DNA from: Octopus vulgaris
Lineage: Eukaryota
Assembly (NCBI GenBank): GCA_951406725.2
Contig: OX597837.1
Span: forward strand, 22,568,001 to 22,632,000
DNA length: 64,000 nt
Reading direction: 5' to 3'
This document shows positions 3,699-40,919 of the stretch, in pieces. Made by a program: the position numbers and the translations under genes. Under the pieces are notes generated by a model. That model was not told the origin of the DNA, made no database searches, and worked only from the letters and a program-made list of their open reading frames with translations. Position 1 is the first letter of the stretch. Each line of letters opens with the position of its first letter.

Positions 3699-5369
3699 TT
3701 AAAAGCTGCACCCTGGGTGGACTTTTAAGCTAGCTCCTGTAGAGGACTAATTGGGCTTGTGGCCCAGAACTAAAGAGAGCAATATCATTTATTGGTACCC
3801 TACCAATATAGTATTACTTTAAATTTAGTTTAAATGAAAAACTTGTAAGTTCACAAATTTTTGGATTTTTTAAAAAATTTGAATTTTCATCTGTTAGCAT
3901 ATAACAAATCCTCGTCCAGACCTGATCCCAATGGTGGATGTACAAGAACCTAATGTAGGGCATTTTCAATTCAAGGATCATCTTGGTTTCAAAAAGGTAT
4001 CATATGTCTTTGGAGAGCAAATGTAGACTGAAATACAGGGGACCTGGATGGACGGACAGACAGAATTTTTTTCGTGTTTATTATTATAGATTTCTGTTCC
4101 TAGTGAAGGCACATGGTCTGGTTGTTAGTATGTTGCACTCATAATAGCCAGATTGTGGGTTTGATTCCTGGACTGGGTGACATATTGTGCTCCTGAGCAA
4201 AACACGTTTCATTTCATGTTGCTCTAGTGCTGTGGAGGAACCAGCACGCCAAAGAATAGACCCAATATTTCCTCTGAATGTCATGAAAGGTGACTAAAAG
4301 AGGTCGATATAGGATTTGTACTCCAACCCCATAAAACCTCACCAGCAACGACTACCCAAACAGACCTATAGGTTGGTGAGTTGTCAGCTGAGTGGTGCAA
4401 AGCCATCATCTGTCAGGAGTAGTAGGGAATCACCAACACATGGTGGATGCAGCGATGTGCTGTTAGAGCACATGCCCCTATATTACAATTAGCTATGCTG
4501 CACAAAGGGCTGTTCTTGGATAGTTCTAGAGGTCAGGGCCTATAAAAGGGGTTTTCAGCTGGTACACCGATTGGTGCAGACATGTAGAAATAACCACATG
4601 TATGCACACAGACATTCACATGGAGAATGCTTAGGAGAAAGAGAGTCTTCCCAGTGTGGACCCAACAGAGTGATCAGCCATTCTGCAACACAGTAGTATG
4701 ACAGAGAAAACAAATATCTAATGTGGTAGGATACAGCTGAATCTATAGAGTCAAAGAGAAGTCAATGAGATTGTACAGGAAGGTGCCATACCCAATGACT
4801 GGCACAGTAGCATTATAGCCAACTGTTACAAGGGGACACAAGAGCAACCAGATCATGACAGTTACAGAGAGAACTTTAGGTCAATTATTTAGGAAGAGGA
4901 ACAGACCAAATGAAATGCAGTTCAGTTTTGTGCCAGAGAGAAGTACTTTTGATGTTCTTTGCCCAGTGAGACAGATATAGAAGTATTTAGTTAAAAGTAA
5001 GCTAGTCTTATTTGTCAATCCAAAGAAAGGCCTTTGACAGGGTGTATGTGAACAATGGAGTGCAGATTGTAGTGAATGGTGAACAAGAGTGGAGGAGGGG
5101 TCAGTGGTAAATACGAGTTGGGTAAGAGGAGGTGATGACTGGCAGTACAGAAAAGGTGGAGAGTAACAAAACAAGGATAAAACAGAAAACAGGTGAAGGA
5201 TGAGAGACAAGATGATGCATGGGATAGGTAAAAGTTGCAAGAGTGTGGACATGTAAACTATGTTGTTGTTGATGATGATGATGTTATTGATGATGGTGGT
5301 GGTAATGGTAGTAGTGGTGGTGATGGTGGTGGTGATGATGATGTAGAAGATGACAATGTTTCTACTCAC

Positions 5370-5553
5370 CTTGCCGAAGAAATTCTGTCTGGGTTTGATC
5401 CCGGATCCCATAGCCGTCCCACCACGAGTAGTTGACACTTTTATTCTGGCGCATATTCTTAAACAGACATCGATGGCAAATAGTCAACAGTTGTTCCGGT
5501 GTTAACTCCTTACCAAGAAATTTGGCAATACGCTGCACATTTCCAGCAAGGTC
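5370..5553 (-). CDS. Sulfotransferase exon 5
   Basis: Acceptor ggcag; DLAGNVQRIAKFLGKELT...TEFLRQ-G; donor GTGAGT. Confidence 0.95.
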
Positions 5554-5746
5554 CTGCCAAATAACAAACAAAACTTTTATTATTGGTACTTAATTTATCG
5601 ACCCTGAAAGGATGAAAGGCAGAGTTGATCTCAGCAGAATTTGAACTCAGAATGTAAAGACAGATGAAATGTTGCTAAGTGTTTTGTCCGGCATGCTAAC
5701 TATTCTGCCAGCTCACTGCTTGATATGCAAACATACTAAAAAGATA

Positions 5747-6287
5747 CAGTAATACCTTACTTTATGAGGACCTACTTTACAAGGCCCCAGGTTTACGAGT
5801 TTCATTTTTCAAGCACAAAATCTAGATTTTGAATGAGGTGCAAAAGTTTCTACTACCATAACAAATGCTTCTGCGTGTTACTGAGAAATTTATAGAGAGC
5901 AAGAAAACATTTTTTCAAAGCAAACAACTCTAGACTTGTTTTTTAAAAAGAAATCTACAAGTCTGTCTATGAGTGCTTGTGAATCAGCAATTGTGTCTGC
6001 AAGTCTAGTGCAAGTAAAATTGATTCATAAAATGATTATAATAATTTTTTTTTATTATAAATGATTTTGACATTCTTTTTACTTTACATAAAATATTCTT
6101 TACATTCTACTGTTGTTTTATTGCCATTTATTTATGAGTATTACAAATTTTATATGTAAAATATTTTTCTGGGAACAAATTACAATTTATAACATTGCTA
6201 CTATGAGAAATTATTGCTCTGCTTTATGAATTTTCGCTTACAAGTGGACTCCGGGAACAAATTAACTTGTATATCGATGCATTACTG
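5747..6287. mobile_element. Tc1/mariner (Tigger/pogo-like) non-autonomous element
   Basis: TA-CAGTAAT ... ATTACTG-TA termini with degenerate longer TIRs. Confidence 0.6.
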
Positions 6288-7155
6288 TATATTGGTTATT
6301 GATCCATTCAAAATATACCCAAATTGGCATGTAGGATTTGAATGCATGCCCAAGCCATTCTCTTCATGATTTTGAAATAAAAATACGAAAGCCAGAGAAG
6401 GAAGAAAGAGAAAGATAAAAAGACATTTTATTGACCTCGAAAGGATGAAAAGCAAAGTTGACCTTGGCAGAATGGGAACTCAGAACATAAAGACGAATGA
6501 AATGCCGCTAAGCATTTTGACTGACCCTCTAACAATTCTGCATCTACACTCCTGAAAGAACTGGTCAGAAATTGAACATTATCTAGATGTGTTGCATGCA
6601 ACCAATGGCATCGATATAGAAGTGTTCTGATGTTTCTAATAAAACTTTGTTTGCTTATATTTTTCAATAAACTCTACTAAATTATTCTTATTTTTCACTT
6701 TTTTCTGAATTTTTCAAATTGTTATGGTAATTTATGGACACAAATGGATCAGTCTATATAACGTTCTTTTTTTCAAGTATCCTTTTCCCCCATATAAACC
6801 TCATTCACTCATATAAGATCCATTAACCCATATAATTTCCTCATTCATCAGTGTAATCCCCTATCATCCTCATAACTCTTCTATTCTCCCATGTAAACTG
6901 TAATGTTTTTTTCATGTGCCTCAAGCATAAGTGCTAGTAAGGCGAAGCAGGTAACAATCACGCACAAATGGTGCTTTTTAACGTGCTATCGGCACAGAGG
7001 TCAGCTTGTTGCTCTGGCAACGATCTCACCTGTATGGTACTCTTAGCACTCCACTAGTATGGATGCCAGTCATCGAGTTTGATTTCGATTTCCTCCTCTA
7101 ATATTAAGAACTACATAAAAATAAACAGAAGCAAAAAAAAAACAAAAAAACTTAC

Positions 7156-7253
7156 CTTATGTAAATCTTCATACTGAACAATGAGGATGTTATGATGTTG
7201 TTGGTTCAAATCCACAGCAGTTCTCACATGTTTACCCCATGGGGAATAATACA
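7156..7253 (-). CDS. Sulfotransferase exon 4 (absent from the ORF track)
   Basis: Acceptor ttgcag; VYYSPWGKHVRTAVDLNQQHHNILIVQYEDLHK; donor GTAAGT; phases match both neighbours. Confidence 0.93.
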
Positions 7254-7444
7254 CTGCAATCAGAAATAAACAGGACTCTTGAGATGGTAAAGGTATGGTT
7301 TGAAGGCAATTTTAGCTGCTACTTTAAAGTGGCACTCTGCCAGTTACAATGACAAGTGTTTCAGTTGAGCTGATCAATGGAATAGCCTGCTCATGAAGTT
7401 AACGTGTAAGTGGCTAAGCACTCCGTAAACACATATAACCTTAA

Positions 7445-7961
7445 CCCTTTCATTACTGTATTTATTTTGAGATGCTCTGTGTTTCTTTCAATTATTTTAA
7501 ATATAACAAAGAATTTAGTAAAATAACTTAGTTATCATTCAGCTAGTGTTAGGAACATAAATTGTGACTAAGGTTTGGAGGAAGATTTTAATTCAGAACT
7601 TTTGAAAACAAGACATTTGTACTACAGAGCCAGAGGTGGTTTCAGGTGGGTTGGTATCAAAATGGTTAAGACAGGAAGAACTAGCAGTGGCCCAAGGTGT
7701 CTTCATATTTATGTATCATTCATTTTTACATCTGTTTTAACACTTTTGTTACCATATTTCTGTTGAGAGACTCTGTGTTTCTTTCAATTAATTTTAAATG
7801 TAACAAAGAATTTAGTAAAATAACTTCGTTATCATTCAGCTAGTGTTAAGAACATAAATTGTGACTAAGGTTTGGTGGAAGATTTTAATTCAAAACTTAT
7901 GGAAACAAGACATTTGTACTCAGAGCCAGAACCGGTTTCAGCCAGGTTGGTAATGAAAGGG
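7445..7961. mobile_element. Two tandem piggyBac-type MITEs plus spacer, inserted at one TTAA inside a family C SINE
   Basis: Outer ends TTAA-CCCTTT and AAAGGG-TTAA; host SINE (~7330-8165) resumes exactly after the second TTAA. Confidence 0.8.
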
Positions 7962-9630
7962 TTAATGCAGTTTTCAGGGAAATTCAGCAAGAAACAGAAT
8001 GTAACAAGGTTGGCCCTTTGAATTACAGGTACTATTAATTTTTATCAGCTGATTAGATTGGAGCAATATGAAATAAAATGTCTTGCTCAAGGATACAATG
8101 CACCAGCAGGTATTGAACTCAGGAGCTTACGATTGTGAGCCAATGGCCCTAACCACTAAGCTGTGCACATGTCAAATAGGACACTGCTGGGAAATATAAC
8201 ATACAACTCAAACTACTTCCCTGAGTACCACACAATAAATGACAGCACATCAAAATATGGAAGGTGTTTGTCATTAAGACAAAGACATGGACAATCAGAT
8301 GTACTGGATCTGTAAATACATAAAAGTATTTGACAAGTTATCTCCACACCCCAGCCTGTTTGGGCAGAGCAAACTCTGCTGTTGAGGAATACACAACAGC
8401 AACCACTGTAGAAATGTTTGATTTATAAGAAAGGTTCATTACTTATAAGGGTTTTTATAGGGGCTGTTTCTTCAAAGTTATAAGAATATTTGCTTAGCCC
8501 CATGCTGGTCCTGACTGAGCAGCCCTATTATCAAAGACCATTTCAACTTCACAGCTCTCTTTTTCTACATATAATACATACCCTGGAATCATCACCATCA
8601 TCATCATCATCATCGTTTAACGTCTGCTTTCCATGCTAGCATGGGTTGGACGATTTTGACTGAGGGCTGGCGAACCAGATGGCTGCACCAGGCTCCAATC
8701 TTGATTTGGCAGAGTTTCTACAGCTGGATGCCCTTCCTAACGCCAACCACTCTAATGTGGTTTTCCTATATTTTAAAGATTTTATGGGTGTGATCTAAGA
8801 GAGATGAAGCTGTTATTTTTAGCTAGTTGAGTGATTGCATAGAAACTCCCTTGTTAGTTCAAGCTTTATAGAAGTTTCTAATAAGGGTGGTTATTACTGC
8901 TATAAGGTAGGGAATTCTCATAAGGATGATCTGTGAAGGTATAATAAAAATGTTGTGAAATAAAGGTGGTTTGTGACAGGATGTTGTAGTCAGGAACTAG
9001 AAAATAGTATTATTTTCTGTAACTAAAAACTTTTTACATCTATTTTTTCCTTATAAATATGGCTTCTAAAACTTCGATAATTTGGATATGGAAGGGCTGA
9101 TGATGGTAAGAATGATAAAACATTCATAGATACATTCAATACTAAATAAATTTTAAGTTTCAGATTTTGAATTATTACAATTATAAGCATACCTTAGAGA
9201 TCATGGAATCTCTCTATTTCTCCACATTGAGAAGTAACAGCCCTAGTCCATTGAAAACAATGTTGGGTGGAATTCTGGTTTAAGAACCCCATAGAGCCCC
9301 TCATAACATTTTAATTTTTTGAAATTTTTAGAAAACTTTTGTGAATATGTCTTTTATACATTGGAATTCATATGATTGTGAAAAAATTTTTTTATTTAAA
9401 AAATTTTTTAAGACCCCATTCCTCCATAAATCCTAAAATTTTCACTCATTTTCAAATTTCTTGCTTAAATTCAGCAATGGATCACCCTTGGGTGCACCAT
9501 CATTCCATTAAATGTGTTTATGGGGAGAAGAATATTGAAAAACATCAATACATTTCAGAGTATCAAAGAGACAAGCTAAAAATAAAAATAAAAATAAATA
9601 AAACATGTTTAGATACTGAGTTATACTCAC

Positions 9631-9757
9631 CTTTATCTTTGGTAAACCTATCGCAGAATTCTTCAAATGTTCCAACAAATTTCAAAGGTGTCAACATTTT
9701 TAGGAAGTTGTAGTATGAAATTAGTATATCCTTTGGATTTCTAACAACATAAATTAT
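9631..9757 (-). CDS. Sulfotransferase exon 3
   Basis: Acceptor cttcag; IIYVVRNPKDILISYYNF...DK; donor GTGAGT; 127 nt. Confidence 0.95.
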
Positions 9758-11559
9758 CTGAAGAAGAAATACCATAATCACCACCATCATAATTACCAGC
9801 AGTTTTCACTACTCCATAGGTAAATTATCAGCATTTTTAAGAACTATAACAGTTTGCAAGAAACAAATGCAACAAAAATTTTAGTTACAGAAAATAGCAG
9901 AATTCTCTCTGTTATAACTAGCATCAGCCCTAATCATATATATATATATATATATGTATGTACGTATGTACGTATGTATACACACACACACACGCAGAGG
10001 TGGTGCTCCAACTTGGCCACAGTGAAATGAGTGTAGCAAGTGAAATAATATATATATATTAAGGAACAAAATGCAAGTTGTCCTTGATATAAAGAAAGAC
10101 AACCCATTTGGAACTAAATGCAGCAAGTTTTGATGTACCAAGTTGTTTACTTCATGTGTGTGAGTATATATGATATATATCATCATCATCATCATTTAAT
10201 GTCTGTTTTCCATGCTGGCATGGGTTGGATGCTTCAACAAGAGCTGGCAAGACAAACCATGCAGCTCATGCCAGCATGAAAATCAGACATTAAATGATGA
10301 CAATTATGATGATGTAAATATATGGATGAGGACAGCTGTATAAAGAAGGGCCAAGCTCTAATTGAGGAGGGAACCTGATGAAGGGGTAGACCGAGGAAGA
10401 CGTGGGATGAAGTGGTGAGGAAGGATCTTCAAATGCTGGACCTCACTGAGGAAATGACAAGGGGCCAGGAGATGTGGCGGTTTGCTGAGCGAGGTCGTTG
10501 CCAGTGCTGCTGGACTGGCTCCTGTGCAGGTGGCACGTAAAAAGCACCATTTGAGCGTGGCCGTTGCCAGTACCGCCTGACTGGCCCTTGTGCTGGTGGC
10601 ACGTAAAACCACCCACTACACTCTCGGAGTGGTTGGCGTTAGGAAGGGCATCCAGCTGTAGAAACTCTGCCAGATCAGATCGGAGTCTGGTGCAGCCATC
10701 TGGTTCGCCAGACCACAGTTAAATCGTCCAACCCATGCTAGCATGGAAAGCGGACGTTAATTGATGATGATGATGATGATGATGATAAGATGCATCAAGT
10801 TAAGTAAAATTGCTGTCTTCCACACATACAGGCATGTCTTTGAAGTGCTGTATTAATGTACCCATGTCAGTGCAACATAAACACACACACTCTCTTAAGC
10901 GGTTGGCATTAGAAAAGGCATCCAACCATAGAAACCATGCCTCAACAGACAGCAGGAATCTGGACAGCTCCCTGCTAGCCAGCTCCAAGCCGTCCAACCC
11001 ATGCCATCATAGAAAGGGGACGCTAAACAATGATGATGATATATATATCTTCATCTCCCACTTAACATGGATGTTGTGTAAGAACATAGAATACTGTGTT
11101 ATTTACCTTAAGAGGATCTCTCATATGGACACGTGGTGCATAAAAGCACTCGTATTTATATCAATGACAGGTGAGAAATGTCTACTACAGCTGCTGAAGA
11201 TCACATGATTTTGCCCTGCCAGAGCTCCTCAGAGGCAGATGCCCTGTAGCCTGTTGCAACATAACAGCAGAATCTCACAACAATGATGTATAGAATTTCG
11301 GTGTCTGTTCAGGAACTAATGTAGTAAATAACCATGAAATCATGCGATCTTGCAGTTCTGGTAGCTATAGCAGATGGTTCTCAGCTGTCGATGATATAAA
11401 TACAAGTGCTTTTATGAATCACAAGGTTGCGTTTTGTGACCTAGCTTCAGGATTCAGTTCCATGGCATGATATATTGGGCAAGTTTCTTCTACTATAACT
11501 TAGGGCTGACCAAAGCTTTGCAAGTGGATTTGGCATAGGGAAACTGAAAGAAGCTCATC

Positions 11560-12545
11560 ATCATCATCATTGTCGTTTAACATCTGTTTTCCATGCTGGC
11601 ATGGGTTGGGCAGTTTGATTGAGAACTGGCAAGATGGGAGGCTGCACCAGGGCTCAGTCTGATTTGACAAGGTTTCTACAGCTAGATGCCCTTCCTGATG
11701 CCAACCACTCTGAGAGTGTAGTGGGTACTTTTACGTGCCACCAGCACAGGAGCCAGTCAGGCACACTAGCAACAGCCACACTTGAATGGTGCATTATACA
11801 TGTCGCCAACACGGGTGCCAGTCAGGTGGCACTGGCATTGGTCACAATCAAATGGTGCTTTTAAATGCCACTGGCACAGGTGCCAGTCAGGCAGCACTGC
11901 ATCAGTCACACTCGAATGGTGCATTTTACATGCCACTGGCACAGGTGGTAATCAGGCAGCATTGGCATCGGCCACACTCGAATGGTGGAACGGTGCTTTT
12001 TATGTGCCACCAGCATGGGTGCCAGTCAGGCGGCACTGTCATCGGCCACGACTATGATTTCACTTGGTCCAATGTCTTCACATGCACAGCATATCGCCCA
12101 ACGATTAAAAGGTGCTTTTTTTAAACAGTCCAGTCAGGTAACACTGGCACTGGCCACAACTACCATCTCACTAGGCTTGCTGGGTCTTCTCTAGCATGGC
12201 ACATCTCCAAAAGTCTCAGTCACTTGTCATTGTCTCTGTCAGGTCCAACGTTCAAAAGTCATGCTTTACCACCTTCCAGTAGCTATAGGTCTACCTCTTC
12301 CATAGGTTCCCCCCAATTAGGGTGTGACACTTCTACACACAGCTCTCCTCATCCATATGCATCACATGACCATACTAGCACAGTCATGTCTCTTGCGCAC
12401 CATGTCTGATGCTTCTTATGTCCAACTTTTGTCTCAGGGTGCTTACACTCTCTCGTGTATGCACACTAACATTACACATCAAGTGGAGCATACTAGCTTA
12501 ATTTCTTTTAAGCCTACACATGTCTTCCACTCACGAGCCTGAGAC
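11560..12545 (-). mobile_element. RTE-type LINE 3' region with internal ~60-bp repeats
   Basis: Reverse complement matches the ORF end and 3' UTR of the element at 61400-62820; (GAT)n tail. Confidence 0.75.
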
Positions 12546-12839
12546 TGCAATAAAAGAGACTTGCCAAAGGTGCTACACAATGGCACTGAACCTGGAATCA
12601 TGTGGTTGGGAAGCAAATTTCTTATCACAAAACTCACATAGCATATCTAAGAAAAAAAATTACTTTGAATTTTTTGGGGTAGTACTGCCTGTCTGATGAT
12701 GAGTCATGTCTTGAGAAAGCTTACCCATGCTTGCTCTGCAGAATAATATTACCCTGGCACATCACATTATTCCTTACAGAATCTTTTTTTTCTTTTTACT
12801 GTGATGATTCTATTGTCTCCTTTAGATTAAACAAACCTA

Positions 12840-14035
12840 GGGTAACATGGTGGTGGAATAATGTATTAGACAAGGCCATTAGAGCAGAGAAACAGTCCTG
12901 GAAAACCTGAAAGAGAAGGGGTAGCAGGGAACTATACCAGATAGCCAGAAGGGAGGCTGGGAGACAGGTATATATAGCCAAAGGAGAAGCAGAAAAGAAG
13001 TTTACCAATGTTCAGCGACATGAGGACCAAAGAACTGAAGTATTTCGGATTGCTAGACAGTGTGTGAGAGAAAATTGTGATGTTACAGGAGAGAAATGTA
13101 TCCACGTGGATGATGGTGCACTTGCTTTTAATGATTCTACAAAGAAAGAGGCACAGATATGCCATTATGAAAGGCTGCTGAATGTGGAGAATGAATGGGA
13201 GGAGGAGAGGACCAGCTACCCAAATTGATAGCACCCTGGTAGATAGAGCAATTAAGTAAGTAGGAAGGTGAACAAATCACAAACCCCTTCAGGTAGATGG
13301 ACCTGCTCAATCTATAGAAAAGGTGTAGGTAGAAACACCATAAGATGTACTCAATGCAAGCTATGGACACATAAGAGGTGCAGCAACATCAAAGGAAGGT
13401 TAACCAGGAAGATAGTTTTTGTGTGTGGCAGATGCACAGGGGCAATAAACACCGAAGATGCACAGAAAACAGATTCCATCACATGCCAGGGGAAGAAACT
13501 AGAAGTGGTTGATAGCTTCCGCTACCTAGGTGACCAGGTCTGTAGTGGGGGTGGATGCTCTGAGAGTGTTGCCACTAGAATAAGAATAGCCTGGGCAAAG
13601 TTCAGAAAGCTCCTACCTCTGCTGGTGACAAAGGGCCTCTTGCTCAGAGTGAAAGGTAGACTGTATGATGCATGTGTGCAAACTGCCATGCTACACGGTA
13701 GTGAAACATGGACCATGACTGTTGAGGAAATATGTAGGCTTGAAAGAAATGAAACTAGTATGATCCACTGGATGTGTAATGTCAGTGTGCACACACAACA
13801 GAGTGTAAGCGCCCTCAGAGAAATGTTAGACATAAGAAGCATCGGATGAGGTGTGCAAGAGAGACGACTGCGCTAGTATGGTTATGTGCTGCATATGGAT
13901 GAGGAGAGCTGTGTGAAGAAGTGTCACTCCCTAACAGTGAAAGGAACCCGTGGAAGAGGGAGACCCAGAAAGACATGGGATGTGGTGTTGAAGCACGACC
14001 TTTGAATGTTGGACCTCACAGAAGCAACGACAAGG
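12840..14035 (+). mobile_element. Internally deleted RTE-type LINE ORF2 fragment with a PHD-like finger
   Basis: ORF 13268-13849: ...CTQCKLWTHKRC...CGRC...VDSFRYLGD...RIRIAWAKF...MLHGSETW. Confidence 0.85.
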
Positions 14036-14464
14036 AAATTTAGGTTAGAGGGCTAGTTGAATACATTGGCCCTAGAGCATGACTGGTACTTATTTCATTG
14101 ACCCTAAAAGGGTGAAAGGCAACTAATCAACTAAAGTACTTATTTTTCTTTTTTTTTTCAAGCTTGGTACTTATTCAATTGGTATCTTTTGCTTAACCAC
14201 TAAGTTATGGGGACATAAACAAACCAACACTGGATGGTGGGGGACAAACACAGATACATATATATACAATGGGCTTCTTTTGGTTTCTGTCTACCAAATC
14301 CACTCACAAGGTTTTGGTTGGCCAGAAGCTATATTAGAAGAGATTTGCCCAAGGTGCCATGCAGTAGGACTGAACCTGGAACCATGTGATTGGGAAGCAA
14401 ACTTCTTACCACAGAGCCATACCTGCATCTCTAATAAAAATAATAATAGTACTCAAATATAAAC

Positions 14465-15756
14465 TCAAGTCGACTTCGGCAGAGTTTGAACTCAGAACAT
14501 AGAGATAGACAAAATGCTGCTTAGCATTTTGCCTGGCGTGCTAACAATTCCTATTTCTTTATTGGCCACAAGGGGCTAAACATTGAGGGGACAAACAAGG
14601 ACAGACAAAAGGATTAAGCTGATTACATCGACCCCAGTGCGTAACTGGTACTTAATTTATCGACTCCGAGAGGATGAAAGGCAAAGTCGACCTCGGCGGA
14701 ATTTGAACTCAGAACGTAACAGCAGACAAAATGCCGCTAAGCATTTCGCCCGGCGTGCTAACGTTTCTGCCAGCTCGCCGCCTTAGATATATTAATAACA
14801 AAACAGAAAAAGAACATTTACTTTTGGTTTGACTGTTGAAAGCTGTTCTGGAAGGAGTTGAAAGGGCAAATGGCTTTTGATCAGTCGAGGTGATTCCTTA
14901 GCAGCTATAGCAGGTAGTCCAGGATAAATATTTTCAAGAAAATGGAATCGTTGTTCAATGTTTTTCTCTTCTTCTTGTGAAATGTCAAGATCTGAATGGA
15001 TGAGGTAGACAATTTCTTGAACCCATGTAGTTCCTGGAAAAGACAAACCATTACACACATATATTTTAATAATAATAATAATAATAATAATGGTTTCAAA
15101 TTTTAGCACAAGGCCAGTAAGTTAGTGGGAGGGCATAAGTTGATAACATCAACCCCAGTGCTCAATATCTTGTTGATCCTGAAAGGAAGTAAGGCAAAAA
15201 TGACCTTGGCAGAATTCGAACTCAGAACGTAAAGACACATATTGTCACTAAGTATTTTAACCAGCATACTAATGATACTGCCAGCTCGCAGCCTTAATAA
15301 TAATAATAATTATAATCCTTCTTACTATAGGCACAAGGCCTGAAATTTGTGGGAGGGGCTAGTCAATTACCTCAACCCCAGTACTTGACTGGTGCTTATT
15401 TTATCAACCCTGAAAGGATTAAAGGCAAAGTCAACCTCAGTGGAATTTGAACTCACAACATAGCGACAGATGAAATGCCACTAAGCACTTCCCCTGATGT
15501 GTTAATGATTCTGCCAGCTTGTTGCCTTATATAATAATAATAATTCTTTCTACTATAGGTACAAGGCCTGAAATTTGTGGGAAGGGTGTAAGTTGATTAT
15601 GCCAACCCCAGTGCTCAACTGGTGCCTATTTCATTGATCCTGAAAGGATGAAAAGCAAAGCCAACCTTGGCGGAATTTGAACTCAGAATGTAGAGATGGA
15701 TGAAATGCTGCTAAGCATTTTGCCCAGCGTGCTAATAATTCTGCCAGCTTGCTGCC

Positions 15757-15806
<50 letters not shown>

Positions 15807-16062
15807 CATTTCTACTATAGGCACAAGGTCAGGAATTTAAGGGGAGGGGATAGTTGATCTCATCAAGCCCCAGTACTTGACTGGTACTTAATTTATTGAC
15901 CTTGAAAGGTGAAAGGCAAAGTTGACTGCAGTGGAATTTGAACTCAGAATGTAGAAGCAGACGAAATACTGCTAAGCATTTCGCCCAGCATACTACCGAT
16001 TCTGCCAGCTTGCCACCATAATAATAACAATAACAATAATAATAATAATAATAATAATAATA

Positions 16063-16108
<46 letters not shown>

Positions 16109-17820
16109 TCATCATCATCATCATCGTTTAACATCTGCTTTCCATGCTGGCATGAATTGGACGATTTGACTGAGGACTGGCAAGCCAGATGGCTGCACCA
16201 AGCTCCAATCTGATCTGGCAGAGTTTCTACAGCTGGATGCCCTTCCTAACACCAACCACTCCGAGAGTGTAGTGGGTGCTTTTACATGCCACCTGCACAA
16301 GGGCCAATCAGGCAGTACTGGCAATGGCCATGCTCAAATGGTGCTTTTTACATGCCACCTGCACAGGAGCAAGTCCAGCGGCACTGGCAACGACATCGCT
16401 TGAATGTTGTTTTCCATGTACCACTGGTACAAGTGCCAGTAAGGTGACACTAGTAACGATCAAACTCAAATAATCTTTTCTACTCTAAGTACAAGGCCTG
16501 AAATTTTTGGGGAGGAGGCCAGTCGATTAGATCAACCCCAGTATGCAACTAGTACTTAATTTATCAACCCTGAAAGGATGAAAGGCAAAATCGACCTTGG
16601 CGGAATTTGAACTTACGTCATAAAGACGGGAGAAATACCTATTTCTTTACTACCCACAAGGGGCTAAACACAGAGGAGACAAACAAGGACAGACAGACGG
16701 ATTAAGTTGATTATATCGACCCCAGTGTGTAACTGGTCCTTAATTTATCGACCCCGAATAGATGAAAGGCAAAGTCGACCTTGGCAGAATTTGAACTGAG
16801 AATGTAACGGCAGATGAAATACCGCTAAGCATTTTGCCCAGCATGCTAACGATTCTACCATTTCACTGCCTTAATAATAATAATAATAATAATGATCTTT
16901 TCTACTAAAGGCACAAGGCCTGAAATTGGTGGGGGGAGATAGTCAATTACATCAACCCCAGTACTCAACTGATACTTAATTTATCGACCCCAAAAGGATG
17001 AAAGTCAAAGTCGACCTTGGTGGAGGCATAAGGTATGAAATTTTGTTAAGGTGTAGGGTAGTCAATTATATTGACCTCAGTACCCAACCAGTATTTATTT
17101 TATTGACCAAGACAGAATGAAAAGTAAAGATGACCTTGTTGAAAGGTCAATAATTAAGGAGGTAAAAAAATTGATGAAATACCTATTTCTTTATTACCCA
17201 CAAAGGGGCTAAACACCGATGGGACAAACAAGGACAGATATAGGTATTAAGTCGATTACATCGACCCCAGTGCGTAACTGGTACTTAATTTATCGACCCC
17301 GAAAGGATGAAAGGCAAAGTTGACCTCGGCGGAATTTGAACTCACAATGTAACGCAGACGAAATACCGCTAAGCATTTCGCCCGGCGTGCTAACGTTTCT
17401 GCCAGCTCGCCGCCTTCTTGATGAAATACCACTAAGCATTTTGCCTGGCATGCTAATGATTCTTTCAGCTCACTGCCTTAATAATAGTAATTCTGAAATT
17501 TTGAGGGAGGGTGCTTGTTGATTACATTGACCCCAGTTTTCCACTGGTACTTATTTCATTGACCCCGAAGCATGAAATGCAATAGCAGAATATGAACCCA
17601 GAATGTAACGAGCTGCAAGAAATCCAACACATTTTTCAAATGCTATAATGTTTCTGCCAGCTTGTTATCTTAATGATGATAATGTTTCTGATTTTGGCAC
17701 AAGGACAGCAATTCTGAGGTGAAGGGACAAGATACTAACACAAAACTGATGCTTTAGTTTATTGACCCTGAAAGGATGACAGGTTAAGTCAACTACAATG
17801 GGATTTGAACTCATAGAGTT
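14465..17820 (-). repeat. Cluster/head-to-tail array of family B tRNA-like SINEs around sulfotransferase exon 2
   Basis: More than ten ~190-230-bp units (GGCGAGCTGGCAGAA...GAGTTCAAATTC...TTTCATCCTTTCGGGGTCGATAAA on the minus strand), many separated by (AAT)n. Confidence 0.85.
14822..15033 (-). CDS. Sulfotransferase exon 2
   Basis: Acceptor tttccag; GTTWVQEIVYLI...PRLIKSHLPFQLLPEQLSTVKPK; donor GTAAAT, phase 0. Confidence 0.95.
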
Positions 17821-17830
17821 AAGATTTGGA

Positions 17831-18214
17831 AGAGTGGCTGTGTGGTAAGTAGCTTGCTAACCAACCACATGGTTCCGGGTTCAGTCCCACTGCGTGGCAT
17901 CTTGGGCAAGTGTCTTCTGCTATAGTCCCGAGCCGACCAATGCCTTGTGAGTGGATTTGGTAGACGGAAACTGAAAGAAGCCTGTCGTATATATGTATAT
18001 ATATATAAGTGTGTGTGTGTATATGTTTGTCCCCCTAGCATTGCTTGACAACCGATGCTGGTGTGTTTACGTCCCCGTCACTTAGTGGTTCGGCAAAAGA
18101 GACCGATAAAATAAGTACTGGGCTTACAAAAGAATAAGTCCTGGGGTCGAGTTGCTCGATTAAAGGCGGTGCTCCAGCATGGCTGCAGTCAAATGACTGA
18201 AACAAGTAAAAGAG
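17831..18214 (+). mobile_element. SINE family A copy
   Basis: Near-identical to 2035-2450. Confidence 0.85.
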
Positions 18215-19277
18215 TATCACTTTAATGATTCTGCTAGCTCACTATTTACATACAAGGCCTGCAATCAGTATTTAATTGGTATTTTATTTTAATGAGAATA
18301 TTAGATAGTACCATCACGTCTGGCATGGGTTGGATGGTTTGACTGAGGACTGGCAAGCCAGAAGGCTGCACCAGGCTCCAATCTGATTTGGCAAGGTTTC
18401 TACAGCTGGATGTCTTTTCTAATGCAAACTACTCCGGGAGTGTAGTGGGTGCTTTTTACGTGCCACTGGTACCAGGTCCCAGTTGTTTGTTTTGGCATGG
18501 TTTCAACAGTTAGATGCTCTTCTTAACACCAACCACTTTACAGAGTAGACTGCTTACCTTCATGCGGTGCCGACACAGATGCTTTACATGTGAAGCCAAC
18601 ATTGTAGTTCTTTTACATGGTGCTGATACAGGCATTTTTTTTGCATGGCATCAATGGATTTAATTCTGCTTGAAGTGTTCTGTGGATATCAACTCCAGAA
18701 AAAAAATCCTCTCTATTACACTTCAGGTAATCTATTGTTATTTCCACTACAGCTTTAACAAACTGAATTCATACTATTTCACGAGTAAATAGTTCTTATT
18801 AGCGAGCTGTTAAAAAAAAAGAGGCGATGCTTCGGTATAGGTACACACGTGACTTTGTTTACATTTCTGAAGATTACAGAAACCCTTTCTCCCACCCCTA
18901 ACCCCAACTCCCCCATATATATAAAAAAACACTTTCTTGAAGATGTATCCGGTACTTACACAGGTACATATACCGAAGGTTCGCCAAAAAAGATTATATA
19001 GATATCTGATGAGAGGTACTGAACAATATATAGTGTATCAGCGTGTATGTGTGTGCGCAACCACAATGTTTAACCACTGGGGTCGATATAATCGACTTAC
19101 CCCTCCCCCAAAATTTGAAACTGATATTTCTGAAGGCGTTTTTTTTTCCAACTTTCTTATCCACCATTCTATGTGCATAATACGGAAGATTGCCGAAGTC
19201 ATCTTTCTAGAAATCGAAAGTGTGGGCAAACTACACCACGAAAACTTACGTTAATTACCTGACTGGAACCGACTTAC

Positions 19278-19806
19278 CTGACCGTGGCCAAGACACTACC
19301 CACACATCGTCTGGTCTAACGTCAAAGTCTCGAATCTTAGGTAAATCGTTTTCTAACATTGCGGGTAGGACAACCCCTTTGTATTGTATCAGTTTCTGTC
19401 GTCGACCGAAAGGTGCATCGTAATAAGTGTGAATATCATGAACATATTTTTTGTAAATAAGTTTCAGACGAGAAAACAAAATAGTGCCGAGGAGTAAAGC
19501 ACCAATGGTTATGGAAGCGTAAACCATGTAAATGATCCTTGGATCCATCTTTTCCTGAGAACTCTTTCTTCTGTAAGGTGGTGCCGGTTTCCACCTTGTC
19601 TGTTGGTGTCCCCGGGAAAACAAACCTTGTTGAGATGACGAACGTTTTGGCGTCAAACACGAAAGGGGTTGCACGAAAACACATGCATGAGGGCGTAAAG
19701 ATTGTGTTAAAACAGGGCGAAGTGAGACGGTGGGATTAAAACGAATCAAAGTGCCGAGTTGCCGGCTTAATAGTCGAGGAAGAAAGAAGGAGTTCATTAT
19801 TGACAT
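19278..19806 (-). CDS. Sulfotransferase exon 1 (N-terminal extension, hydrophobic helix, start of catalytic domain)
   Basis: ATG in AAACA-ATG context; encodes ...FDVRPDDVWVVSWPRS-G; donor G|GTAAGT, phase 1. An alternative start Met87 (ATG 19548-19546) is possible. Confidence 0.88.
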
Positions 19807-19945
19807 TGTTTTTGACTTTCACATGTGGGAAATTTTAGTTTTACCGCCGGAAGTTGAATAGATTCAAGGGAAATCACTCTGAACAAACTATCAAGAAATC
19901 ACCCTGAATAAACCACCCCAAGAAATAAAATTCCGGCAGAACTGA
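19807..19945 (-). promoter_or_regulatory. Putative proximal promoter/5' UTR of the sulfotransferase gene with an ETS-type site
   Basis: CCGGAAGT at 19847-19854, about 40 nt upstream of the ATG; exon 1 is visibly CpG-richer than the rest of the window. Confidence 0.4.
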
Positions 19946-37920: not shown

Positions 37921-38282
37921 CTGAAATATACACATAATTATACAGTCAGACAGGAATATAAGCTTTATGATGACAAAGATAACCAACAATGAAGGAACCT
38001 GTATGTGGTTTACTCAACTTCTTAGAGCACAACACCACACAACACACAAGCTAAGACATCTTAGACAAGTATTAATCTTTCTTTCACCTTCTTTTTCTTC
38101 TAAGCAGTTACGACAGCGAAAGCTGATTACGTCATTTTACCTAAACTGAAACGAATGTTTTCCACGTTCATATTTGAATTTTTTCCCTTTCTACATTATT
38201 TTTTACTTTTATATATTCTCAAACTGGATGAGCATATAACAAGCCAGCTGGCACAAAAAATATCCAGTGAGACTTCTTTATC

Positions 38283-38333
38283 AATGTACTTGAAGAGACA
38301 CAGACTGATGGCTTGAAACATATGTTGTACCTT
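38283..38333 (+). ncRNA. Degenerate minimal type I hammerhead ribozyme-like motif
   Basis: AATGTAC-TTGAAGA-(weak stem II)-GAAA-CATATG-TT-GTACCTT. Confidence 0.4.
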
Positions 38334-38880
38334 ATAAAGGTCTAATACAAAATCCATTTCCTACTATCAATCTCTTATTATAAAAGGCAGATTTTATCTG
38401 CCTCCCTTTGGGAGTTATACAAATCTACAATATAGGATTTCTTCAATTACAATTTACCTTGCATTTTTGAGAGTACAATGCATCGCGTCATGCCAGGTCC
38501 AGTTTTTAAAATTTAAACTCCAATTAAGCAAAATTTACAGAAAACTCACATTCTGGTGTGTGTCAAATGCTTTTCTTAGTCTGGTTTACAGCACACGCAA
38601 ACGCACACACACAGTGGGCAACGAATAAAATGAAAGTAATTGACTTACTGTAGTGAGTGATTCTTTCACTCTGCCTCCCACTTCCTCTTTCAACACATAG
38701 ACACGCAAATATATAAATAAAATTGTAAGCTAACGTGCGTGTGTGTGAGTGGGTGTGTGTGGGTGTGCGCGCGTGTGTGTGTGTGTGTGTGAGGGTGCGT
38801 GTGTGTGTGTGCGTGTGCGTGAGTGTGTGACAGGAAAGTTTTTTACTACGAATATAACACCTATATCCAAGTAGCAGAAA

Positions 38881-39252
38881 GATAAGACAGTAAGGTGTGA
38901 TTTGAGGGAGATTTGGCTGCTATTTCTACCATGTCTAGCTGCCACGTAGGGGTCTCCCTCATAGGCTCATACATACATATATACATAGATAAGACAGTAA
39001 GGTGTGATTTGGGGGAAATTTGGCTGCTATTTCTACCAGGTCTAGCTGCCATGTAGGGGTCTCCCTCATAGGCTCATACATACATATATACATAGATAAG
39101 ACAGTAAGGTGTGATTTGGGGGAAATTTGGCTGCTATTTCTACCAGGTCTAGCTACCATGTAGAGGTCCCCCTCATTGGCTCATATATATATACATACAT
39201 AAGACAGTAAGGTGTGATTTGAGGGAGATTTGGCTGCTGTTTCTACCAGGTC
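38881..39252 (+). repeat. Minisatellite, 107-bp unit, about 3.5 copies
   Basis: GATAAGACAGTAAGGTGTGATTTG starts at 38881, 38988, 39095 and ~39198. Confidence 0.92.
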
Positions 39253-39581
39253 TGTTAGGCCTTCTCATGTAAACTCAAGCTTTCTCATGCCTTGAACATA
39301 AGACCAAAGCAGATAATGTATTCTTTTATTCTGCTTTTTCCAGCCATTGGTCTGTGGCCATGCTGGGGCAATGCCTTGAAGAATTGTAGTTTAATGAATC
39401 AACTCCACTTTTATTTTTGTAAGCATTGTACTTATTCTATCTGTTTCCTTTGTCAAACCACTAGGTGACAGGGATGTAAACAAACCAACATTCGTTGTCA
39501 AGCAGTGGTGGAGGACAATCACAAGCACAGACACGCACACACATACATGCATACACATATATATATGTGTGTATATATATA

Positions 39582-39846
39582 TTGCAGCGTGGAAGGTGTT
39601 TGTAAGCCATTTAAGAAACACACAAAAACCGTTACATTCACTTCAACATTTAAATTTAATTTGCCAAAATATTTTCGTCGCTTTGAGACCGCGACCTGTT
39701 CACTGACAAAAATATCGTGCTAACAGGTCGCGGTCTCAAAGCGATGAAAATATTTTGACAAATTAAATTTAAATGTTGAAGTGAATCTAACGGTTTTTGT
39801 GTGTTTCTTAAATGGCTTATAAACCATTGTACCTTCAACGCTGCAA
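39582..39846. repeat. Long palindrome (~120-bp arms, 21-nt spacer), probably an inverted pseudo-LTR of a Penelope-like element
   Basis: 39582-39700 is the reverse complement of 39722-39846 with few differences; (TA)n tracts lie on both sides of the element. Confidence 0.85.
39660..39710 (-). ncRNA. Candidate minimal type I hammerhead ribozyme (G3-C8 core variant)
   Basis: UUUGUCA-GUGAACA-G-GUCGC(GGUCUCAAA)GCGAC-GAAA-AUAU-UU-UGGCAAA, folded by eye. Confidence 0.55.
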
Positions 39847-40008
39847 CTGTTTTCGTTCCAGCACACGATCTCAGATCAAGTCACTTGCTATGCAAGTACA
39901 TCTCTGTAACTATATATATATTTATATATATATATATATGTATATTGGTAAAAACAGTAAGATAACAAAAGAAAGAAAGAGACCTCAATATTATGTAAAT
40001 AGAGGAAA

Positions 40009-40403
40009 TCTTTATATATAAAAGTGAGGTTGTGTGTCTGTCTCCTACGATTTAGATTCCTAACTACTCCCACATTTTGCGGTGCAGTTTAACCAAAACC
40101 GGGTATCTTATAGTCGTGATTCATATCGAGACCGTCTGGGTATTAGCGCGCGTCTACGATGAGTCTACGATTTTAAAAAAAATTTAACATAAATTTTTCC
40201 CATTTTTAATCCATTTTTGACATATATAAGGGAAGTAACTCTCTAAAATGTATTATTAAATCTCAGAACGTAAAAAGCTACAGTAACACCCCTCCCCCTT
40301 TGTGGTTAGCCATATTGAGATGGCTATTATACTTTACATCTCTAAAAATGCTTATATAATTATTTCCCTTACAAACCTGAGCAACGCCGGGCGATACTGC
40401 TAG
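40009..40403 (+). mobile_element. Non-autonomous Helitron-like element
   Basis: Sits between A and T, begins TC, ends CTAG, has a GC-rich subterminal hairpin-like CCTGAGCAACGCCGGG and no TSD. Confidence 0.75.
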
Positions 40404-40425
40404 TTAATATATAAATACACACACA

Positions 40426-40817
40426 CAGGAGTGGCTGTGTGGTAAGTAGCTTGCTAACCAACCACATGGTTCCGGGTTCAGTTCCACTGTGTGGCATCTT
40501 GGGCAAGTGTCTTCTGCTATAGCATCGGGCCGACCAAAGCCTTGTGAGTGGATTTGGTAGACGGAAACTGAAAGAAGCCTGTCATATATATATATGTATG
40601 TGTGTGTTTGCGTGTCTGTGTTTGTCCCTCTAGCATTGCTTGACAACCGATGCTGGTGTGTTTACGTCCCCGTCACTTAGCGGTTCGGCAAACGAGACCG
40701 ATAGAATAAGTACTGGGATTTAAAAAAATAAGTCCCCCGGTCGATTTGCTCGATTAAAGGCGGTGCTCCAGCATGGCTGCAGTCAAATGACTGAAACAAG
40801 TAAAAGAGTAAAGAGAG
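40426..40817 (+). mobile_element. SINE family A copy
   Basis: Matches 2035-2450. Confidence 0.85.
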
Positions 40818-40919
40818 CACATGTCTGTGTGTGTGTGTGTGCATGTGAGCATGCATATATCTAACAGAGTTTTATCTGACACATACGTGACATAAGACAA
40901 ATAAGAGTAAAGAACTTAC

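What the first reader, a model, noticed from the sequence alone, without database searches (positions are those of the whole stretch)
39660..39710. Variant hammerhead ribozyme at the centre of a long palindrome
Seen: the minus strand folds by eye into a complete minimal type I hammerhead. Stem I is 7 bp (UUUGUCA/UGGCAAA; the other arm reads the perfect complement UGACAAA), stem II is GUCGC/GCGAC followed directly by GAAA, and stem III is the self-complementary AAAUAUUU. The core reads GUGAACA rather than CUGANGA, a compensatory G3-C8 swap, with one extra G after A9 and a UUU cleavage triplet. Established: Penelope-like elements carry minimal hammerheads that dimerise through a palindromic stem III, and positions 3-8 covary. 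Inference: a divergent ribozyme family that canonical CUGANGA searches would miss. On this strand it lies in the ZXD pre-mRNA (intron).
Basis: partly seen in the sequence, partly recalled or inferred. Interest (0 to 1): 0.8.

Follow-up and report, generated by a model that had tools for sequence, protein, structure and literature searches.

The report
Swapped-core hammerhead in octopus retrotransposon
This is the hammerhead RNA motif of a Penelope-like jumping gene, present in about 5,500 genomic copies with two core bases swapped (G3-C8, a pairing I found in print only as a lab-made mutant); it likely self-cleaves weakly in the full element, but this copy is a fossil carried by a second transposon and is predicted to be locked in a long hairpin.

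Summary
The motif is real and as described. It is the only hit of a relaxed hammerhead descriptor in the window (0.03-0.07 expected). It is the pLTR hammerhead of a Neptune-type Penelope-like element (family A): a 4.26-kb pLTR-ORF-pLTR unit with RT and GIY-YIG domains exists elsewhere in the genome. G3-C8 is the family state (5,497 of 5,938 pattern matches). Sister families B and C and a metagenomic relative carry C3-G8 hammerheads in their pLTRs or just behind the ORF, with unalignable flanks (A vs B) and compensatory stem changes, so the swap is natural 3/8 covariation. The palindrome is a typical Penelope insertion: two 5'-truncated copies head to head, plus a tail, in (TA)n. It was captured inside a young 2.03-kb non-autonomous Helitron (about 720 copies), which lies in an intron of a minus-strand zinc-finger gene. 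In that palindrome the fold is predicted to be fully sequestered, so cleavage of the host pre-mRNA is unlikely. Cleavage was not tested. The youngest family B lineage fixed A9C and is still amplifying, which suggests the catalytic constraint may be relaxed. Verdict: new variant of a known kind.

The parts
39660..39710 (-). Minimal type I hammerhead motif with G3-C8 core, extra G, 5-bp stem II, palindromic stem III and U17; predicted cleavage site between 39667 and 39666
39582..39721 (-). 5'-truncated pLTR copy of Penelope-like family A: complete hammerhead, ORF start codon at 39610, ends at the inner 3' end next to (TA)n
   Evidence: 89-90% identical to the L148 unit
39722..39909 (+). Second, inverted pLTR copy, truncated inside the core (no complete hammerhead); runs on through the ~60-nt tail to the outer 3' end, then (TA)n
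39812..39909 (+). First ~33 codons of the element's RT-endonuclease ORF (MAYK...STRSQIK.LA), homologous to the N-terminus of family B
38371..40403 (+). Non-autonomous Helitron, 2,033 bp, A|TC ... CTAG|T, carrying the palindrome as cargo; about 720 copies share its junction
40381..40403 (+). Helitron 3' hairpin and CTAG end
40008..40403 (+). Nested ~400-bp Helitron with its own TC start; occurs free elsewhere (80-91% identical) and supplies the 3' end
   Evidence: L032, L047, L235
38880..39253 (+). 107-bp tandem repeat inside the Helitron; unit number varies between copies
37921..40919 (-). Intron of a minus-strand C2H2 zinc-finger gene that hosts the Helitron (flanking exons 41039-40920 and 37920-37834, in frame, GT-AG)

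Best explanation
The motif is the pLTR hammerhead of a Neptune-type Penelope-like retrotransposon, with the 3-8 core pair flipped to G3-C8 throughout the family; in tandem elements it likely self-cleaves slowly as a dimer, while the window's copy is a Helitron-borne fossil predicted to be inactive. Shown: the motif lies about 1 kb after the RT-GIY-YIG ORF stop and 56 nt before the next ORF start; sister families B and C and an outgroup have C3-G8 motifs, B and C at the matching position before the ORF start; stems covary. Inferred: two motifs of a tandem pLTR-ORF-pLTR transcript pair through AAUAUU to complete stem III and cut after U17, perhaps helped by the element's protein as reported for PAc. 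Inferred: reverse transcription starts about 87 or 148 nt downstream of the cut site, giving the two 3' ends. Inferred: one such event left two truncated copies head to head in (TA)n, and a Helitron later took up that DNA and multiplied it.
For: Full tandem unit in L148: motifs at +5238 and +9499, read-through into the ORF, plus an inverted copy. ORF with RT (YVDD) and GIY-YIG (PF01541, 25.4 bits, cut-off 22.6), linker CX3CX2C and CCHH. G3-C8 in 5,497 of 5,938 matches; 0 C3-G8 among the first 100 of 144 non-G3 matches. Family B (54% protein identity): older copies read CUGAUGA...UC (556 non-C9 matches, mostly A9 with C17 among the first 100). Family C reads CUGAAGA (19 of 30 loci fetched, 6 with protein hits to A or B). 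Outgroup L136 (41% identity) has a canonical motif behind its ORF. A vs old B: 9 of 9 invariant core bases and G10.1-C11.1 identical, but flanks only 18/60 and 20/60 identical. Across 11 motifs from 3 families, 98% of cells pair and 4 pairs change on both sides, including 3-8. Engineered C3G/G8C partly restores cleavage of a Penelope hammerhead (PMC11167929). U17 and UUU occur among published PLE motifs (PMC4209133 Fig. S3). Helitron ends: CTAG|T in 30 of 30, A|TC in 21 of 25 5' ends found. Palindrome fold -197 kcal/mol with hammerhead stem probability about 0.
Against: No cleavage data. Published metazoan minimal hammerheads cleave poorly even as dimers (PMC4209133), and the swap restores activity only partly. 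A 10-bp extended palindrome that buries A13, A14 and U17 is predicted 2.4 kcal/mol more stable than the catalytic double hammerhead (nearest-neighbour model, no tertiary terms). Family B's youngest, ORF-intact lineage has fixed A9C (3,029 matches), so a canonical core is not needed for amplification there. The covariation rests on only three lineages, and the tool warns that related sequences can beat its shuffles. None of the 4 family A copies read from the pLTR start codon gave a full-length frame.
Confidence: 0.62

Rival explanations
1. The motif descends from a hammerhead but no longer cleaves. The fold is kept as a protein-binding or structural element of the pLTR (for RT loading, or splicing or translation control), and G3-C8 in family A and A9C in family B are steps of catalytic decay.
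For: Family B shows a series from A9/C17 to C9/C17 to C9/U17, with the last state in the ORF-intact copies. Catalytic mutants of the PAc hammerhead did not affect insertion in vitro, and no RNA-seq reads began or ended at its site (PMC11167929). Naiad elements amplify without hammerheads (10.1101/2021.04.23.441226). A competing extended duplex is predicted.
Against: Family A keeps every other catalytic base and a Watson-Crick 3-8 pair. Shared changes among 51 copies hit 6 of 9 loop II positions, but in the core only position 8, in 4 copies. Decay would not be expected to spare single-stranded core bases.
Confidence: 0.3
2. The window's intronic copy, or other Helitron-borne copies, cleave host pre-mRNA or act as a co-opted regulatory ribozyme.
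For: The complete motif lies on the sense strand of the host intron, and about 720 copies share this form.
Against: The complementary arm lies 5' of the motif on that strand and forms a ~110-bp duplex, with hammerhead stem probability about 0. There is no second complete motif nearby to pair with. The copy is 97-98% identical to dispersed Helitron copies, so it is young cargo.
Confidence: 0.04
3. Chance resemblance produced by the palindrome itself, such as a MITE or foldback centre whose self-complementary words mimic stems.
For: The stem I words are near-palindromic (TTTG-N-CAAA); Rfam gives no hammerhead match.
Against: The motif occurs complete outside palindromes, in pLTRs next to RT-endonuclease ORFs. 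Canonical counterparts sit in families B and C and in L136. Rfam also misses those canonical B and C motifs. The repeat unit's ends are Helitron ends, not terminal inverted repeats.
Confidence: 0.02

Closest known systems
[quoted passage not shown]
   Same: Type I topology, extra nucleotide after A9, G10.1-C11.1, short palindromic stem III needing a dimer, H17 including U, position in the pLTR, opposite-strand pairs from truncated insertions.
   Different: G3-C8 core. The representative motifs of its Fig. S3 (56 by the legend; read as text) start CUGA or UUGA, none GUGA. The extra base is G, where their consensus is H (one listed example has G).
Natural U3-A8 core variants (PMC3088659; S. mansoni Cercyon PLEs in PMC4209133)
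   Same: Natural covariation of the 3-8 pair.
   Different: Here the pair is inverted purine-pyrimidine (two transversions), not a double transition.
PAc Poseidon element of Anolis (Frangieh 2024, PMC11167929)
   Same: Hammerhead near the ORF start; two 3' ends inside the ORF giving a tail; AT-rich targets; C3G/G8C is partly active.
   Different: There G3-C8 is an engineered mutant. PAc is Poseidon clade with the ORF starting in stem II; here the ORF starts 56 nt after the cut site and the protein has the Neptune/Nematis linker zinc finger.
Non-LTR retrozymes (10.64898/2026.07.22.740005)
   Same: Type I hammerhead related to PLE pLTRs.
   Different: No tandem array of short hammerhead-bearing units here; copies are truncated PLE insertions or Helitron cargo.
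Non-autonomous Helitrons with captured DNA (own knowledge of the family)
   Same: 5' TC, 3' hairpin plus CTAG, A|T target, head-to-tail tandems, mosaic cargo, nested element supplying the terminator.
   Different: The cargo includes a complete Penelope insertion with a ribozyme motif.

Membership tests
PLE minimal type I hammerhead | Invariant core U4 G5 A6, A9, G12 A13 A14, A15.1-U16.1 | tested here: met
PLE minimal type I hammerhead | Literal C3-G8 (CUGANGA) | tested here: not met
   G3-C8 in 5,497 of 5,938 matches
PLE minimal type I hammerhead | Watson-Crick 3-8 pair | tested here: met
   G-C in 5 family A rows, C-G in 6 family B and C rows
PLE minimal type I hammerhead | Stems I and II, G10.1-C11.1, extra base after A9, palindromic stem III, H17 | tested here: met
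   consensus in PMC4209133 Fig. S3
PLE minimal type I hammerhead | Covariation, and core conserved above flanks | tested here: met
   only three lineages plus one outgroup
PLE minimal type I hammerhead | Located in the pLTR of a PLE | tested here: met
   (L148, L116, L117)
PLE minimal type I hammerhead | Site-specific self-cleavage | not testable with these tools
   only assembled contigs were available
Rfam hammerhead families | Covariance-model match | tested here: inconclusive
   no match in the window, but none for canonical B and C motifs either
EN+ Penelope-like element | Single ORF with RT and C-terminal GIY-YIG with CCHH | tested here: met
   Pfam gave no RT family hit, so RT rests on motifs and a homologue named RT domain
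EN+ Penelope-like element | Tandem pLTR-ORF-pLTR, inverted 5'-truncated copy, tail, AT-rich target | tested here: met
Neptune clade | CX2-5CxxC zinc finger in the linker before the endonuclease | tested here: met
   definition from 10.1101/2021.04.23.441226; shared with Nematis
Neptune clade | Placement in an RT tree with reference clades | not tested
   no named reference sequences were on hand
Helitron (non-autonomous) | 5' TC, 3' hairpin plus CTRR, insertion between A and T, tandem arrays | tested here: met
Helitron (non-autonomous) | Autonomous Rep/helicase partner with matching ends | not tested
MITE / foldback DNA transposon | Inverted repeats form the element's termini | tested here: not met
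   shared sequence runs about 1.2 kb left and 0.55 kb right of the arms
Non-LTR retrozyme | Tandem short units each with a complete hammerhead | tested here: not met
   one complete motif in the window; tandem spacing in the family is 4,261 bp

The most novel reading that the evidence does not exclude
This is the first natural hammerhead family with an inverted G3-C8 core pair, fixed in more than 5,000 copies and catalytically active. Together with its sisters (canonical C, canonical old B, A9C/U17 young B) it forms a natural mutational series in one genome, showing how far a retrotransposon can drift from the hammerhead core, and whether cleavage matters at all, while still transposing.
Probability: 0.5. 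Interest if true: 0.68.

Novelty: new variant of a known kind. Interest (0 to 1): 0.52.

Why it matters
The role of hammerheads in Penelope-like elements is an open question: they are almost always present, yet cleave poorly and were dispensable for insertion in vitro. Here one genome holds related families with a canonical core, a flipped 3-8 pair and an A9C core, and the A9C family has intact ORFs. That makes the link between cleavage rate and transposition directly testable with natural sequences. It also shows that CUGANGA or UUGANAA descriptors miss whole families of thousands of copies. The window's own copy is ordinary transposon cargo.

Tried and rejected
Rfam: no hammerhead match in the window or in three loci, two with canonical motifs; uninformative. 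L031 seemed to continue into an ORF but was flanking DNA. L092, with two matches 3.5 kb apart, is a local duplication with no ORF of 150 aa or more. G3/G8 copies as an evolutionary intermediate: rejected, because the G8 copies examined lie on several subfamily backgrounds and have the same divergence as C8 copies (0.051, n=30, vs 0.052, n=94). Stem I as a by-product of the palindrome: rejected. Sequencing runs: no RNA holder listed on record; four runs laid were all contigs, so start and end sites, strand and expression could not be read, and no splice joint appeared in the stretch laid, which held only the last 33 bases of the putative intron. The metagenome scan gave 2 relatives from 25 candidates; only L136 had sequence far enough behind the ORF. 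Earlier findings: two look-ups, nothing. Pfam PF26215 is not in the library. Lunse et al. 2017 (small PLE hammerhead variants) and a 2012 hammerhead review could not be opened, so a prior natural G3-C8 report there is not excluded. The host gene name ZXD was not tested beyond C2H2 matches.

Full report
Observation. It lies in an inverted repeat with 103-nt arms at 96% complementarity, extending to 39582/39846. A relaxed hammerhead descriptor finds this site alone in the window; 60 shuffles give 0.07, 0.03 and 0 hits at rising stringency. Rfam has no match, but it also misses canonical relatives found later.

The immediate container is a Helitron. A DNA search of the genome (2.8 Gb) gave 1,822 candidates; the 40 scored were 97-100% identical. 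In the 30 loci fetched, shared sequence spans window 38371-40403. All 30 end in hairpin + CTAG|T. Of 25 5' ends found, 21 follow an A, 2 follow the CTAG of another copy and 2 were fuzzy matches. Head-to-tail or closely spaced tandem copies occur. The palindrome's unique junction occurs 720 times (control 0). The interior is a mosaic: a 107-bp tandem repeat, an interspersed repeat fragment, the palindrome, and a nested 400-bp Helitron that also occurs free. The Helitron lies in an intron of a minus-strand C2H2 zinc-finger gene. The host is probably an octopus: the top named homologue of the element's protein is an Octopus vulgaris RT-domain protein at 57%.

The palindrome is a Penelope insertion. 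A pattern requiring the complete core and the right-hand extension on one strand gave 78 loci (control 0). The 30 fetched show variable 5' truncation, a sharp 3' end into AT-rich DNA, a second 3' end about 60 nt earlier, and inverted truncated copies; one of the 30 (L059) was a rearranged Helitron copy. An upstream motif shaped like a 3' splice site occurs 1,009 times. 25 of 30 fetched have the GUGAACA core behind it and none has C3-G8; several have a GIY-YIG ORF end upstream. Protein searches found near-complete ORFs. L148 holds a tandem unit of 4,261 bp with the motif in both pLTRs, read-through into the ORF and an inverted copy. The protein has GxKF/Y-like, DKS, YVDD, linker CX3CX2C and CCHH motifs and a GIY-YIG hit above cut-off. 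This fits the Neptune/Nematis definition (10.1101/2021.04.23.441226, passages). The ORF starts 56 nt after the predicted cut site, and the two 3' ends lie 87 and 148 nt after it, as with the two initiation sites of PAc (PMC11167929, parts 1-2 of 4 read). The window's right arm encodes the first ~33 codons. None of 4 family A copies read from this start gave a full frame; the youngest copies are 97-99.7% identical to L148.

The swap is the family state and is derived. Exact patterns give 5,497 G3-C8, 144 non-G3 and 297 G3/non-C8 matches (controls 0). These include the Helitron copies. Among the first 100 non-G3 matches, counted by eye, 9 have C3, all with C8. Family B (54% protein identity; intact 1,309-aa ORF) has a hammerhead at the same position, 101 nt before its start codon. 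Its older copies are fully canonical (556 non-C9 matches, mostly A9 with C17 in the first 100); 3,029 have C9, with C17 or U17. A survey for canonical cores gave 1,623 matches against 195 in the control. 19 of 30 fetched are a third family, C, with core CUGAAGA and a stem I resembling A's; 6 of the 19 hit the A or B protein. A metagenomic relative at 41% identity has a canonical motif behind its ORF. Between A and old B all 9 invariant core bases, the extra G and G10.1-C11.1 are identical, while 60 nt on either side match at 18 and 20 positions, and blastn aligns only the ORF's first codons, at E = 0.03. On 11 chosen motifs, 98.2% of cells pair (0 of 500 shuffles reach it; slid controls 21-54%), and four pairs change on both sides: 3-8, stem I first pair, stem II fourth pair and 15.2-16.2. 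Two of the five measures did not beat the shuffles (65 and 500 of 500), and only three lineages are sampled. Within A, among 51 copies not selected on the core, alleles shared by 4 or more copies fall on 6 of 9 loop II positions, on a CpG in stem II, on a wobble-keeping stem I site and on flanks; in the core only G8 in 4 copies.

Mechanism. Shown: position, homology and covariation. Inferred: in a tandem transcript two motifs pair through AAUAUU to form stem III and cut after U17, slowly. Support: metazoan minimal hammerheads cleave only as multimers and weakly (PMC4209133, parts 1-2 of 4 and supplement parts 1-2 of 3 read; one supplementary file could not be searched). The C3G/G8C mutant partly restores cleavage (PMC11167929; PMC8495972, one passage; PMC3884650, passages). 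U17, and a UUU triplet in Crassostrea, appear in the published PLE alignment. Against: a 10-bp extended palindrome scores -29.6 versus -27.2 kcal/mol for the catalytic dimer, and other inactive pairings score lower still at -31.3. I put homology to the PLE hammerhead at about 0.97 and detectable cleavage by family A at about 0.6. For the window's copy, the complementary arm is transcribed first on the host's sense strand; the fold is -197 kcal/mol with hammerhead stem probabilities of 0.0. Cleavage of the host pre-mRNA is unlikely.

Novelty. Natural 3/8 covariation is known as U3-A8 (PMC3088659, section 8 and passages; PMC4209133). Full-text searches for a natural G3-C8 gave: 'G3C8' 0 papers; 'C3G'+'G8C' 2 papers, both engineered; 'G3-C8' 1 paper, an engineered variant; five further spellings 2 papers that looked unrelated by their listings. 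A search for hammerhead + octopus + Penelope listed only the Naiad paper. An O. vulgaris repeat annotation mentions Penelope and Helitron families but not hammerheads or ribozymes (PMC13282606, passages). Two reviews were checked by passages (PMC6765202, PMC6155905), and part 1 of 5 of the retrozyme preprint was read. Lunse et al. 2017 could not be opened, and most subscription papers are not searched, so 'first natural G3-C8' is likely but not established.

Verdict. A real feature, correctly recognised: a new core variant of the known PLE hammerhead, in a large family with natural control families in the same genome. The particular copy is inert cargo. Interest 0.52.

Noticed in passing
L118-L125, L130-L134, L146, L182-L193 (family B): Family B shows a stepwise drift of the hammerhead core: A9/C17, then C9/C17, then C9/U17, the last in copies with intact ~1,310-aa ORFs. 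An apparently active PLE with a non-canonical A9C core (3,029 matches).
   Followed up: partly
L148:5200-5222; L062-L091: A branch-point, pyrimidine tract and AG motif ends 18 nt before the pattern start in stem I of family A (1,009 matches). About 11 of 30 truncated copies begin within 2 nt of this AG, hinting at spliced templates or a start site there, as with the D. virilis Penelope intron. No 5' splice site was identified.
   Followed up: partly
genome-wide: Among the first 100 non-C8 copies about 37 have G8 (47 T, 16 A, by eye), far more than the 9 G-to-C changes at position 3. They lie on several subfamily backgrounds; unexplained mutation hotspot.
   Followed up: partly
L218, L219, L225 and other rows: Further canonical minimal hammerheads with palindromic stem III (TATA, CCGG, CATA types), probably other PLE families of this genome.
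   Followed up: no
window 39822-39832: The window's Helitron has a 6-nt insertion in the right arm, absent from the other copies viewed, that creates an 11-nt match to 39421-39431 within the same element.
   Followed up: no
window 39582-39846, about 720 copies: Each Helitron copy carries a ~110-bp near-perfect hairpin; intronic copies would be long dsRNA, plausible ADAR or small-RNA substrates in a cephalopod (inference).
   Followed up: no
window 5362-19818 (-): Exon-like frames resembling cytosolic sulfotransferases (for example ...VRPDDVWVVSWPRSG, ...RLIKSHLPFQLLP, ...YVVRNPKDILISYY) form a second minus-strand gene; identification is from recall.
   Followed up: no
   Followed up: partly
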